A stretch of 64,000 nt of DNA from Escherichia coli (GTDB taxonomy: Bacteria > Pseudomonadota > Gammaproteobacteria > Enterobacterales > Enterobacteriaceae), in the NCBI RefSeq assembly GCF_046105845.1, contig NZ_CP151004.1; one strand, written 5' to 3'. Below are positions 53,301 through 56,300 of this stretch, piece after piece (the first letter of the stretch is position 1; each line of letters starts with the position of its first letter). The position numbers were made by a program.

Positions 53301-56300
53301 AGTCTGGAGTCAGCCCGGATATGAACTGCAACTATTGCAAATAAAGAAATTAAGCTGGAAGGCATCACGCAATGAGGAAGATAGCCGGGTGCTGACAGTA
53401 AAAAGCAATCGTAAAATCAGCGGCAAGCCGGAAGGGTTCCGGTGAGGCGCAATGTTGCGGGGGCTTTATCCCTGGTGGCATTGGTTGCTGGAGAGAGAAA
53501 ACCCCCGCACGTTGCAGGTATGCACCTGACAACACCACGGGGGCTAATCTTGACTCTAGACCACTCAAGAATAGCCGCGAAACGTTGTCATTACAACACA
53601 GGCGGCTATATGACGCTCGCAGAGCTGGGCATGGCCTTCTGGCATGATTTAGCGGCTCCGGTCATTGCTGGCATTCTTGCCAGCATGATCGTGAACTGGC
53701 TGAATAAGCGGAAGTAACGTGTCAGACGGGCGTCAGGCTGCCGTAATGGCAATTTGCGTCCGGACCAGGCCGCAGGGATAAAACTCTGTGGCCTTTTTCG
53801 TAAGAAAAATGCAACGGTTGCAAGCGGATAATATTCTGCGGAATGCGCAGCACAGAGTGAAGAAGTGATGGATTCCGGAACAGAAAAACAGTCGTAGAAT
53901 CAGCGGCAAGCCGGAAGGGTTCCGGTGAGGCGCAATGTTGCGGGGGCTTAATCCCTGGTGGCATTGGTTGCTGGAGAGAGAAAACCCCCGCACGTTGCAG
54001 GTATGCACCTGACAACATCACGGGGGCTAATCTTGAACCCAAACAACTCAAGAATAGCCGCGAAACGTTGTCATTACAACTCAGGCGGCTATATGACGCT
54101 CGCAGAGCTGGGCATGGCCTTCTGGCATGATTTAGCGGCTCCGGTCATTGCTGGCATTCTTGCCAGTCTGATCGTGAACTGGCTGAATAAGCGGAAGTAA
54201 CGTGTCATGCGGGCGTCAGGCTGCCGTAATGGCAATTTGCGCCCGGACCAGGCCGCAGGGGTGAAACTCTGCGGCCTTTTTCGTGCTTACTGCGGGTAAG
54301 GCACCCAGTCGCCGCCGTTCAGGCGAACGTACGGTTTATCCTGGTATTGAATAACTACTGCATTTGAGTTCTCTGAGACCGGTGCTGTTTGTGGCAACCC
54401 ACTGGTGAGTTTTTTCCAGTCAACATTGTCTTCGGTGAAAATCTTGCCATCAAGAACGCGAACCACCAGATCGGAGATAGCCAGGAAGCTGCTCGGTTGG
54501 TCGATGACAATCGGTGCCCCCTGATGTGGTGCCTTCATGCCGAAGAATTTCACCCCAACGGGGACGTCTGTGATAGACGGGCTAGGGATATCACGTAGGC
54601 CAGATACCTGCATTCTGTCGCCCTTCAGCGCGCCGCCGTGTTCCGGCACCACGACCACCATCACTTTACGACCCGATTTCTCCAGTTCAGTAAAGAAGGC
54701 GTCCAGTTCATCAAAGAATTTCTGCGCCCGTGCTTTGTAATCCGCTGTTTTGCTGACGCCCGGATAATGGTTGCCGTCATGCAGTGGAAGCGTGTTGTAG
54801 AACGTGGCACTACGGCTGTTTTTATCTTTTTCGGTAACGTCCAGCCAGCGGTTAAGCACGGCGGTATCGTCATAAACCGGCGAACCATCAAAGCCCAGCA
54901 AAATAACCGGCAGATTTGTTTGATCCATCAATTCGGTCTGCATGCCGCCATTTTCGCGAACTTCTTTCAAAAAACCGCCGAACTGGCCGTTATGTCCCAT
55001 CATCAGGTGCTGGGTAAAGCCCAGTTTCGACAGGTTATCAAACAGATAGCAGTCGTTATTTGCCGGTTGATACAGATTAGTGTGCGAAGTCTGCCCGCAG
55101 CTGGCGCGCAGTAAACGGATCGCTGCCGGGCCACTGTAGGAGGTGGCGGAGTTAAAGTTCTTGAACTCAATATCGAAATGCGACCACAGCGGATGCGACA
55201 TTAACCCGGCGGCTTCAATATCCGACCAGGAAAGCGAACAGATATTAATCACCAGTAGTTCAAATGGCTGAGCATCAGCGGGCAGCGAAGACGGGAAGGT
55301 CGATTTACGTTTCGCCTCCGCGTTATAGAAATTATTCAGCCAGGCGTTAAGGTTCGCCGTTGTTGGCGGTGCAGTTTGTGCGGGCATATCACCCACTACC
55401 GGTGCGCCACCCGTCGCCGCAACGGTTGCCGCTGCGTTACCACCCGTCGTTGTTACAGTGGTCGTCGGTTGACCGGCTGGCCACAAGGAGAAACTTGGTC
55501 CCGCCAGGGTAAGTACGTTCAGCCATAGCAGAATGGCAACCACAAAAACGGTAATGCGAATCCATTGTGACAGGAATAACCAGGCCACTAATAAAACAAA
55601 AATGGCCCCAATCATCTGCCAGTTAATAAAGCGTGTGACAAGGTCGATTAAATAATCGGTACTGAACCCCGCCACCTGCGAACCCTGGCTCATTATGCTT
55701 TCCGGGCCAGGCAACCAGGTGTCATGCCATAACAAAGCAAAGCCGATCGGCAGGGCAATCCAGTGGCGTAAGCGATGCAGGCTGTAGCGCGGAATGGGCA
55801 TCAGCAGAAACGCGGCAAACACCAGATTGAGGAGCGGATGGAAGTTAAGATATCCCGCCCACAACAGGCCGAACTTAACCAGAAAATAGAAGTTCCAGCC
55901 GGAAAGGCCGCGCCAGTATTGCCAGAGGGAAGAAGGCATGGCGGTATTTTGCGTAAATTGAGTCATTTTTTGGTTGCCCTGGCTTTTTCCGTGCGGCGTA
56001 ACGTCCCGGCCGGTTTAACATAACGAGGTTTAGCAAAGAACAAACGTAAGGTGTCGCGAATGCGTCGCAAAGAGTGCCGCGCCAGATAGCCCAGCGGGAA
56101 AAATATCAGTGCGCAAACGACAATAATTTCAATGATATCGCTGATGGTCATCATGATGAGCGCTCCACAGCATCATCTAACAGTCGCATTGGTTCTGGTA
56201 TTCGTCGCCAGTGGCGACCATCGTGCTCGGCATTAATGACCGGTTTAGAATTTTGCGTTAAAGGCAGCGGCATGCCCCATTGTTCTGGGGCAAGCAGGCG

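What the first reader, a model, noticed from the sequence alone, without database searches (positions are those of the whole stretch)
53400..54285. Tandem duplication of the Ldr/Rdl type I toxin-antitoxin unit between yhjV and bcsG
Seen in sequence: two roughly 400-bp units repeat with a period of about 483 bp. Each encodes a 35-aa Ldr peptide (copies differ at one residue, M versus L), an oppositely oriented Rdl-like antisense region and a terminator hairpin; an 82-bp unique spacer separates them. Established knowledge (from memory): K-12 has a single ldrD/rdlD copy at this locus and a triple tandem ldrABC elsewhere. Inference: copy number at this locus is strain-variable, and two near-identical toxin genes with cognate antisense RNAs could cross-regulate.
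Basis: partly seen in the sequence, partly recalled or inferred. Interest (0 to 1): 0.45.

Follow-up and report, generated by a model that had tools for sequence, protein, structure and literature searches.

The report
Two tandem Ldr/Rdl toxin-antitoxin units
The window carries two intact, side-by-side copies of the well-known Ldr toxin / Rdl antisense-RNA module between yhjV and bcsG; this is ordinary, because most sequenced E. coli carry two to five copies here and the difference from K-12 is already published.

Summary
Two LDR-D-type units lie head to tail with a period of exactly 483 bp and differ at 19 of 401 core positions. Each has a 35-aa Ldr ORF with a full-length Pfam Ldr_toxin match. 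Each has an Rfam rdlD hit on the opposite strand (87 and 90 bits, threshold 50) and a terminator.

- K-12 has one copy here.
- The inter-unit junction occurs in 3304 of 5426 complete E. coli genomes (61%), one to four times each, so arrays hold 2-5 copies, usually 3.
- RefSeq annotates these copies as Ldr family proteins.
- A 2017 paper states that BL21(DE3) has three ldrD/rdlD pairs between bcsG and yhjV against one in K-12.

The two copies are old paralogues, not a fresh duplication. Unit 1 matches first units of other strains and unit 2 matches last units. The "unique spacer" is the diverged promoter-side part of the second repeat.

The one mildly interesting by-product concerns where the copies differ. 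Differences cluster in an 11-nt hairpin loop of the ldr mRNA, which is complementary to the 5' end of Rdl. The same holds for tandem neighbours in other Escherichia and Klebsiella. This hints at insulation between copies rather than free cross-regulation, but it is untested.

The parts
53319..53801 (+). LDR-D-type repeat 1. It consists of a diverged promoter-side part (53319-53400) and a conserved core (53401-53801).
   Evidence: Identity at offset 483: 47.6% for 53319-53400 and 95.3% for 53401-53801. Repeat family D1.
53802..54284 (+). LDR-D-type repeat 2.
   Evidence: The spacer recurs between units in other strains' arrays.
53412..53417 (+). Putative -10 box of ldr-1 (TAAAAT). The transcription start is inferred near 53424.
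   Evidence: A TAnnAT box at the same alignment column in K-12 ldrA/B/C (TAGTAT), K-12 ldrD (TAGAAT) and both window units. No consensus -35 was found. The start site is an inference.
53895..53900 (+). Putative -10 box of ldr-2 (TAGAAT). The transcription start is inferred near 53907.
   Evidence: The -35 region lies in the diverged part and differs from that of unit 1.
53452..53529 (+). Conserved 25-codon upstream ORF in the ldr-1 leader (MLRGLYPWWHWLLERENPRTLQVCT). It is a candidate leader ORF and its role is unresolved.
   Evidence: ORF list. The nucleotide sequence is nearly identical in K-12 ldrA/B/C and ldrD. Its 3' end lies under Rdl.
53935..54012 (+). The same upstream ORF in ldr-2, with Y6N relative to copy 1.
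   Evidence: T53467 versus A53950.
53496..53561 (-). Rdl-1 antisense RNA gene (66 nt).
   Evidence: Rfam RF01813, 87 bits, model 1-66. The 5' end lies 49 nt upstream of the ldr ATG, as for the rdlD annotated in MG1655. It folds as an unpaired 5' stretch of about 11 nt plus a hairpin.
53979..54044 (-). Rdl-2 antisense RNA gene (66 nt).
   Evidence: Rfam RF01813, 90.4 bits. It differs from Rdl-1 at 4 of its first 8 nt and at 1 position in the stem.
53568..53596 (-). Putative rdl-1 promoter: -35 TTGTAA (53596-53591), 17-bp spacer, -10 TATTCT (53573-53568).
   Evidence: Read from the sequence. The block is near-invariant between K-12 ldrABC and ldrD units. It falls below the scan's 9-of-12 threshold.
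54051..54079 (-). Putative rdl-2 promoter, identical to that of unit 1.
53548..53570 (+). ldr-1 mRNA hairpin: UCUUGA, an 11-nt loop CUCUAGACCAC, then UCAAGA. The loop and 5' arm are the complement of the 5' end of Rdl-1. The loop is the hypervariable block.
   Evidence: MFE folds. Four of the 6 stem pairs show compensatory changes in 46 sequences. The loop is the most variable non-coding segment.
54031..54053 (+). ldr-2 mRNA hairpin with loop ACCCAAACAAC.
   Evidence: Five of the 19 differences between the units fall in this 11-nt loop.
53610..53717 (+). ldr-1 toxin ORF (MTLAELGMAFWHDLAAPVIAGILASMIVNWLNKRK). Shine-Dalgarno AGGCGG at 53600-53605.
   Evidence: Pfam PF13940, E=1e-26, residues 1-35 of 35.
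54093..54200 (+). ldr-2 toxin ORF (…ASLIVNWLNKRK; M26L). Shine-Dalgarno at 54083-54088.
   Evidence: Pfam PF13940, E=6e-26. The exact sequence is widespread in public assemblies.
53727..53760 (+). ldr-1 3'UTR segment predicted to pair with the Shine-Dalgarno/AUG region (53584-53619) and with the 5' leader (53446-51). This is a hok-like fold-back.
   Evidence: MFE, consensus fold, and pair counts on 46 sequences: 93.8% of cells paired against 33-45% with partners slid.
54210..54243 (+). ldr-2 3'UTR fold-back segment.
53767..53799 (+). ldr-1 intrinsic terminator (11-bp stem plus T-run).
54250..54282 (+). ldr-2 intrinsic terminator. It ends 5 bp before the bcsG stop codon.

Best explanation
The locus is a two-copy array of the LDR-D long direct repeat of E. 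coli, that is, two complete ldrD/rdlD-type type I toxin-antitoxin modules.

Each ~483-bp repeat is inferred to transcribe a stable ~376-nt mRNA. This mRNA encodes a 35-aa membrane-active Ldr peptide. A 66-nt Rdl antisense RNA is made from the opposite strand of the 5' leader.

The full-length mRNA is predicted to be translationally closed, because its 3'UTR pairs with the Shine-Dalgarno/AUG region and with the 5' leader. Rdl pairs with the leader, starting at a hairpin loop 45-56 nt upstream of the AUG. The duplex blocks toxin synthesis and is cut by RNase III. These last steps are known from K-12 and are only inferred here.

The two copies are old paralogues kept at fixed positions in the array. 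Copy number among strains (1 to 5) changes by unequal recombination between repeats. K-12's single copy is one state of this polymorphism.
For: Identity of the parts:
- Pfam Ldr_toxin full-length matches.
- Rfam rdlD at 87 and 90 bits.
- The same offset between Rdl and the ATG as in the MG1655 annotation.
- Terminators.

Locus and polymorphism:
- yhjV-ldr-bcsG with 1 copy in K-12, 2 copies, 3 copies and 4 copies.
- The inter-unit junction is present in 3304 of 5426 genomes, with 1-4 places each and a median of 2.
- The junction is absent from both K-12 ldr loci, so the counts are specific to this locus.
- In a systematic sample of 60 junction-positive genomes, 9, 31 and 20 carried 1, 2 and 3 junctions. 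Four of 40 sampled genomes matched the window's two-copy layout end to end, and 15 of 40 were single-copy.
- Published: BL21(DE3) has three pairs at this locus (PMC5435950); lineage-specific Ldr duplications (PMC2887945).

Old paralogues: unit 1 is 96-97% identical to first units elsewhere, unit 2 is 98% identical to last units, and the two are only 92.5% identical to each other over 415 bp.

Mechanism:
- Fold-back and target-hairpin pairing is kept in 93.8% of cells across 46 units from Escherichia, Salmonella, Citrobacter, Pseudocitrobacter, Kluyvera and Klebsiella.
- Nine pairs show compensatory changes, and 0 of 500 shuffles reach the observed number of doubly changed cells.
- The UTRs are more conserved than the CDS.
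- Toxicity, Rdl repression and the RNase III-cleaved ldrD/rdlD duplex come from the literature (PMC4147584; PMC7373196).
Against: Nothing argues against the identification.

The mechanism has weak points.
- No sigma-70 consensus promoter passes the scan, and the ldr -35 region differs between the copies. Expression of each copy is therefore unproven.
- Covariation for the fold-back is modest. Many pairs are invariant or change on one side only, and the structure tested was derived from one of the sequences. RNAalifold on the broad set did not itself choose the helices between the translation start region and the 3'UTR.
- The proposed leader ORF 'ldrX' could not be identified with certainty. 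The conserved 25-codon ORF ends 80 nt before the ldr AUG. The only AUG under Rdl (53520) is in frame with ldr and is absent from the ldrABC units.
Confidence: 0.93

Rival explanations
1. This is a recent, strain-specific tandem duplication of a single ancestral ldrD unit. On this view the window strain is unusual relative to a one-copy norm.
For: K-12 and O157:H7 have one copy. The two units are 95% identical in their core.
Against: Multi-copy arrays are the majority state (61%). Unit 1 and unit 2 are each closer to their positional counterparts in other strains (96-98%) than to each other (92.5%). The promoter-side segment has diverged to 48% identity.
Confidence: 0.03
2. One of the two copies is a decaying, non-functional remnant, for example silent because its -35 region differs, so that effectively only one module works.
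For: The sequence upstream of the -10 box is unrelated in detail between the copies. No consensus promoter was detected for either.
Against: Both copies keep the ORF, Shine-Dalgarno, -10 box, rdl promoter, Rdl hairpin, fold-back segment and terminator. Internal-unit promoter regions are conserved among strains. BL21(DE3) transcriptome data were used to place RdlD RNAs at its three copies (PMC5435950). Both peptide variants are widespread.
Confidence: 0.08
3. The two modules cross-regulate freely: either Rdl represses either ldr mRNA, so the array behaves as one module with double dosage.
For: The Rdl RNAs are identical at 61 of 66 nt, including the whole hairpin and its loop. Computed full-length non-cognate duplexes remain very stable, at -125 kcal/mol against -140 to -142.5 for cognate pairs. 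Rdl-2 can pair with the ldr-1 loop through three G·U pairs and one mismatch.
Against: Five of the 19 differences between the units fall in the 11-nt loop that faces the 5' end of Rdl (binomial P=1e-4). The same concentration is seen in 6 other tandem neighbour pairs. In 11 E. coli arrays no two units share an Rdl 5' end. Duplex energy for the first 18 nt of Rdl drops from -29 to -14 (Rdl-1 on ldr-2) or -19 (Rdl-2 on ldr-1). Tandem ibs/sib and zor/orz modules discriminate cognate from non-cognate partners through a few nucleotides (PMC2943612 abstract; PMC8167048).
Confidence: 0.35
4. The repeat is an assembly artefact, a single unit written twice.
For: None beyond the general risk with repeats.
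Against: The copies differ at 19 core positions and in the peptide. The same layout with the same period is found in thousands of complete genomes.
Confidence: 0.01

Closest known systems
ldrD/rdlD (LDR-D) of E. coli K-12 (Kawano et al. 2002)
   Same: Same locus (yhjV-bcsG), same architecture and near-identical sequence: 95% to either unit over 415 bp. The Rdl of unit 1 is identical to K-12 RdlD over the 66 nt compared.
   Different: K-12 has one unit and the window has two. K-12 LdrD has F3 where both window peptides have L3. Unit 2 has L26 and a different Rdl 5' end.
Three ldrD/rdlD pairs between bcsG and yhjV in E. coli BL21(DE3) (PMC5435950)
   Same: The same locus in a multi-copy state, already published. 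E. coli B derivatives show two inter-unit junctions.
   Different: Three copies rather than two.
ldrA/B/C-rdlA/B/C tandem array of K-12 (chaA-kdsA)
   Same: A tandem array of the same family. The 5' leader, Rdl hairpin, translation start region, 3'UTR fold-back segment and terminator are near-identical. The variable block is in the same place.
   Different: Different locus and a period of 535 bp rather than 483. Overall identity is about 75%, and the peptide belongs to the LdrB group.
hok/sok (mok) of plasmid R1 and chromosomal homologues
   Same: It works alike as proposed in the literature and as predicted here. Both have a long leader, an antisense RNA against the leader rather than the ribosome-binding site, a 3' end folding back on the 5' end and translation start, and RNase III cleavage of the duplex.
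   Different: It is not a member. The peptide family is different. The Rfam sok model scores only 24-26 bits against a gathering score of 59. A true hok/sok locus elsewhere in the window scores 119 bits.
Tandem ibs/sib and zorO-orzO / zorP-orzP modules
   Same: These are tandem near-identical type I modules in one intergenic region. Their copy number varies between strains, and a few nucleotides decide which antitoxin RNA represses which mRNA.
   Different: Specificity has been shown by experiment for Sib and Orz. For Rdl it is only suggested here by where the differences lie.

Membership tests
Ldr toxin (Pfam PF13940) | Full-length match to the Ldr_toxin profile | tested here: met
   E=1e-26 and 6e-26, residues 1-35 aligned to model 1-35. 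NCBIfam holds no HMM that matches, yet PGAP names identical proteins 'Ldr family'.
Ldr toxin (Pfam PF13940) | About 35 aa, with a hydrophobic helix followed by a conserved Trp and a charged C-terminus (signature in Fozo et al. 2010) | tested here: met
   Both peptides end in …IVNWLNKRK after a hydrophobic stretch. The signature is described in PMC2887945.
Ldr toxin (Pfam PF13940) | Toxic when overproduced | not testable with these tools
   Known for K-12 LdrD and LdrA (PMC4147584, PMC7472228). Not tested for the L3 or L26 variants.
RdlD antisense RNA (Rfam RF01813) | Covariance-model score at or above the gathering score (50 bits) | tested here: met
   87.0 and 90.4 bits, full model, minus strand.
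Ldr/Rdl type I toxin-antitoxin module | The antisense RNA gene lies opposite the 5' leader and does not overlap the ribosome-binding site or start codon | tested here: met
   The Rdl 5' ends are at 53561 and 54044, 49 nt upstream of each ATG. This is the same offset as rdlD versus ldrD in MG1655.
Ldr/Rdl type I toxin-antitoxin module | Both RNAs are expressed and Rdl represses its ldr | not testable with these tools
   Shown for K-12 ldrD/rdlD. RdlD RNAs were placed at the three BL21 copies from transcriptome data.
LDR-D long direct repeat locus | Located between yhjV and bcsG, with repeats of about 0.5 kb in tandem when there is more than one | tested here: met
   Flanking genes and a period of 482-484 bp in 13 loci from other genomes.
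hok/sok family | Match to the hok/sok RNA model and a Hok-family peptide | tested here: not met
   The sok model scores 24-26 bits against a gathering score of 59. The peptide is Ldr, not Hok.
hok/sok-like mechanism (works like, not membership) | The mRNA 3' end folds back onto the 5' leader and the translation start region | tested here: met
   93.8% of 1780 cells are paired in 46 sequences, against 33-45% with partners slid. Nine pairs show compensatory change. Caveat: the structure was derived from a member sequence and covariation is modest.
hok/sok-like mechanism (works like, not membership) | A leader ORF (mok/ldrX) is translationally coupled to the toxin ORF and its start is covered by the antisense RNA | tested here: inconclusive
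   A conserved 25-codon ORF (53452-53529) ends under Rdl but starts 44 nt outside it and does not reach the ldr start. The AUG at 53520 under Rdl is in frame with ldr and is absent from ldrABC. ldrX is only a proposal in the literature.

The most novel reading that the evidence does not exclude
The hypervariable 11-nt loop of the ldr mRNA hairpin, together with the complementary 5' end of Rdl, may act as a specificity code. Under selection it would differ between neighbouring copies, so that each Rdl controls mainly its own ldr. In this strain the cross-talk would be one-directional: Rdl-2 could still pair with ldr-1 through G·U pairs, whereas Rdl-1 could not pair with ldr-2. Tandem Ldr arrays would then be sets of independently triggerable toxins rather than extra gene dosage. 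I found no statement of this for Ldr/Rdl in the held literature.
Probability: 0.3. Interest if true: 0.4.

Novelty: already known. Interest (0 to 1): 0.12.

Why it matters
As filed, the finding matters little. It re-describes a known polymorphism of a known toxin-antitoxin family. K-12's single ldrD is the less common state, found in about 39% of complete genomes.

It is a useful reminder that K-12 is not representative for counts of type I toxin-antitoxin modules. A deletion of 'ldrD' designed on K-12 would miss copies in most strains.

The side observation could matter more. If differences between tandem neighbours really reflect selection on the Rdl-contact loop, Ldr/Rdl would join Ibs/Sib and Zor/Orz as a case where duplicated RNA antitoxins are kept from acting on each other's targets. 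A simple co-expression experiment could test this.

Tried and rejected
- Tandem Repeats Finder gave no rows. With two copies and a diverged fifth of the period it scores below threshold, so I used the repeat finder and fixed-offset identity instead.
- The sigma-70 consensus scan found no promoter. I located the -10 boxes by conservation between LDR-ABC and LDR-D. The -35 elements remain unassigned.
- The NCBIfam scan of both peptides and of the leader ORF gave nothing. Pfam settled family membership.
- The sub-threshold Rfam 'sok' hits over the ldr leader were considered as evidence of homology with hok/sok. I rejected them as membership evidence, since 24-26 bits falls well below the threshold of 59.
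- I considered that K-12's single unit is a recombinant of a first and a last unit. Its 5' flank and Rdl match first units and its 3' flank matches last units. However, the 3' variants are shared by many first units too, so this stays undecided.
- The Kawano 2012 review and the 2002 papers are not held. The mRNA length of about 370 nt therefore rests on my memory, and the ldrX coordinates could not be checked.
- RNAalifold on 46 sequences chose local hairpins rather than the helices between the translation start region and the 3'UTR. I tested that structure explicitly instead.
- The permutation test on Rdl 5' ends within arrays (P about 0.001) is not independent evidence, because arrays share ancestry and the loci were sampled through one peptide variant.
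- The window is E. coli proper: 98-99% identical to E. coli and 90-94% to cryptic-clade Escherichia. It has no near-identical complete genome in the collection.
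Full report
**Observation.** The sequence between yhjV (minus strand, ends at 53197) and bcsG (minus strand, 54287-55966) contains a direct repeat with a start-to-start spacing of exactly 483 bp. At that fixed offset, 53401-53801 and 53884-54284 differ at 19 of 401 positions. Each unit holds four features:
- a 35-codon ORF (53610-53717 and 54093-54200), differing only at residue 26, M versus L;
- a full-length match to the Rfam rdlD model on the opposite strand (53496-53561 at 87 bits; 53979-54044 at 90.4 bits; gathering score 50);
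- a G+C-rich hairpin followed by a T-run (53767-53794 and 54250-54277);
- a peptide that matches Pfam Ldr_toxin end to end (E=1e-26 and 6e-26).

One detail needs correction. The 82-bp 'unique spacer' (53802-53883) is 47.6% identical, without gaps, to the stretch 483 bp upstream (53319-53400). Random 82-mers from the window give 25 +/- 5% and never more than 45% in 20,000 draws. The locus is two abutting ~483-bp repeats whose promoter-side fifth has diverged.

**How common this is.** I compared 53000-54600 with 5426 complete E. coli genomes. A systematic sample of 40 fell into three groups:
- 4 matched the two-copy layout end to end;
- 15 matched with 483 bp missing, that is, a single copy (these include K-12 and O157:H7);
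- 20 chromosomes matched only up to the end of unit 2 and then continued with further units.

The last row was a partial match on a 195-kb record, not a chromosome.

Annotated examples show one copy in K-12, two in strain 2013C-4282, three in strain A16 and four in O103 RM8385. All are named 'type I toxin-antitoxin system toxin Ldr family protein' by RefSeq.

A 116-bp query across the inter-unit junction (53785-53900) hit 3304 genomes (61%), with one to four places each and a median of two. The junction is absent from both K-12 ldr loci, so the count is specific to this array. Among 60 sampled junction-positive genomes, 9, 31 and 20 had one, two and three junctions. As a rough estimate, 39% of genomes have one copy, 9% two, 31% three and 20% four, with a few having five.

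Both window peptides occur verbatim in very many public assemblies. They sit at various positions in arrays of one to four copies.

**What is published.** Kim et al. [quoted passage not shown] Fozo et al. 2010 inferred lineage-specific duplications of Ldr loci and list 2 to 10 Ldr genes per Escherichia/Shigella genome (PMC2887945).

**Age of the copies.** Over 415 bp, unit 1 is 96-97% identical to the first units of other strains. Unit 2 is 98% identical to last units. The two are only 92.5% identical to each other. The period is 482-484 bp in all 13 loci from other genomes that I examined. These are old paralogues kept in place. Copy number presumably changes through unequal recombination, which is an inference.

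**Anatomy and likely mechanism.** I aligned the window units with K-12 ldrD and ldrA/B/C. The leader, the Rdl hairpin region, the translation start region, a 3'UTR segment and the terminator are far better conserved than the coding sequence.
- A TAnnAT box (53412-53417 TAAAAT; 53895-53900 TAGAAT) is conserved at the 5' edge of the core. This places the inferred mRNA start near 53424 or 53907 and gives a transcript of about 376 nt. From memory, Kawano 2002 reported about 370 nt.
- The rdl promoter reads -35 TTGTAA, 17 bp, -10 TATTCT, and is identical in both units.
- Folding each inferred mRNA predicts that the 3'UTR (53727-53760) pairs with the Shine-Dalgarno/AUG region (53584-53619) and with the leader (53446-53451). 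It also predicts a leader hairpin, UCUUGA-[11 nt]-UCAAGA (53548-53570), whose loop and 5' arm are complementary to the first 14 nt of Rdl.

To test this structure I collected relatives. The 21-mer AGAGAAAACCCCCGCACGTTG retrieved 47 loci from species-representative genomes of Escherichia, Salmonella, Citrobacter, Pseudocitrobacter, Kluyvera, Klebsiella and Pluralibacter. On 46 aligned units the structure is kept in 93.8% of cells, against 33-45% when partners are slid. Nine pairs show compensatory changes, four of them in the six-pair target hairpin. None of 500 shuffles reaches the observed number of doubly changed cells.

The support is real but modest. The structure was derived from a member sequence, and RNAalifold on the broad set preferred local hairpins for the start region.

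The remaining steps rest on the K-12 literature and were not tested here. These are LdrD toxicity, rescue by RdlD, a hok/sok-like mode of control through a proposed leader ORF ldrX, and RNase III cleavage of the ldrD/rdlD duplex (PMC4147584; PMC8167048; PMC7373196).

I could not pin down ldrX. A conserved 25-codon ORF (53452-53529) ends under Rdl. The only AUG under Rdl (53520) is in frame with ldr and is missing from ldrABC.

**Cross-regulation.** The two Rdl RNAs differ at five positions. Four lie in the first eight nucleotides and one in the stem.
- In the mRNA, five of the 19 differences between the units fall in the 11-nt loop (binomial P=1e-4).
- Among 34 units from 14 E. coli loci, the 16 nt facing the 5' end of Rdl are polymorphic at 6 of 16 positions, against 38 of 382 elsewhere (Fisher P=0.004).
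- No array carries two units with the same Rdl 5' end. This test is not phylogenetically independent.
- The same concentration of differences in the loop appears in six other tandem neighbour pairs, from a divergent genome labelled E. coli (~90% identical to the window), Escherichia sp. E1V33 (two loci), Klebsiella oxytoca, K. michiganensis and K. spallanzanii (P from 4e-7 to 0.11).
- The computed duplex energy of the first 18 nt of Rdl is -29 kcal/mol for cognate pairs, -14 for Rdl-1 on ldr-2 and -19 for Rdl-2 on ldr-1. The asymmetry arises because transitions leave G·U pairs in one direction only. Full-length non-cognate duplexes remain very stable at -125 kcal/mol.

Free cross-regulation is thus thermodynamically possible. 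Even so, the placement of the differences resembles the discrimination shown by experiment for Sib/Ibs and OrzO/ZorO. A mutational hot spot in an unpaired loop is the null explanation. Only an experiment can decide.

**Verdict.** The finding is a correct description of an ordinary, annotated and published polymorphism. It is a two-copy LDR-D array in an E. coli strain. The window is 98-99% identical to E. coli and about 90-94% to cryptic-clade Escherichia. Novelty: already known. Interest: low. The most novel reading still open is that the loop and the Rdl 5' end form a specificity code that insulates tandem copies.

Noticed in passing
L049:645-1041 (+), L051:10918-11314 (-), L057:484-880 (-): Three loci, from an Enterobacteriaceae gut isolate, Kluyvera ascorbata and K. 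sichuanensis, keep the Ldr-type leader, Rdl complement, Shine-Dalgarno/ATGACG start, 3'UTR fold-back segment and terminator. They encode an unrelated 30-aa hydrophobic peptide (e.g. MTFREALVIAVVTSIIGPIVVALVCHFCNI). It has no Pfam match and no name in the protein collection. The regulatory framework is the same but the presumed toxin differs.
   Followed up: partly
window 53554-53564 and 54037-54047; also the tandem pairs in L026, L037, L046, L047, L048, L061: Differences between neighbouring tandem Ldr/Rdl units concentrate in the 11-12-nt loop of the leader hairpin that faces the 5' end of Rdl. This holds in Escherichia and in the Klebsiella oxytoca group.
   Followed up: partly
window 53459-53612 and 53942-54095 (+): The Rfam 'sok' model (RF01794) aligns weakly to the whole ldr leader up to the AUG (24-26 bits, gathering score 59, E=0.005-0.016). 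This is sub-threshold, but its helices coincide with those predicted for the ldr mRNA.
   Followed up: partly
window 27425-27576 (+) and 27859-28287 (-): A second type I toxin-antitoxin locus lies in the same window: a sok/hok-type RNA match at 119 bits, next to the cspA thermoregulator at 491 bits.
   Followed up: no
window 40000-53000: This stretch includes an lpf (long polar fimbriae) operon next to eptB/dpp. Only 473 of 5426 complete E. coli genomes cover at least 80% of it, and the best identity is 96.9%, lower than the 98.9% seen for window 1-25000.
   Followed up: no
window 53452-53529 and 53935-54012 (+): A 25-codon ORF in the ldr leader is almost invariant at the nucleotide level between K-12 ldrABC and ldrD units. 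It carries a Y6N difference between the two window copies. Whether it is translated, and whether it is the proposed 'ldrX', is unclear.
   Followed up: partly
L015:3484-4314 and L016:3590-5352: In two public E. coli assemblies bcsG is not called next to the ldr array. In L015 bcsF follows about 530 bp after the last ldr gene. In L016 there is a 1.7-kb stretch with no called gene. This suggests disruption or deletion of bcsG beside the repeat.
   Followed up: no
window 45161-45580: A tRNA gene is followed by an RtT element (102 bits) and a naRNA4/REP-type match (62.7 bits). This is an ordinary E. coli feature.
   Followed up: no
L032:5202-6137 (Escherichia whittamii): The two ldrABC-type tandem units here have the same loop sequence (ACCAGAACAAT). 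This is an exception to the rule that neighbours differ in the loop.
   Followed up: no
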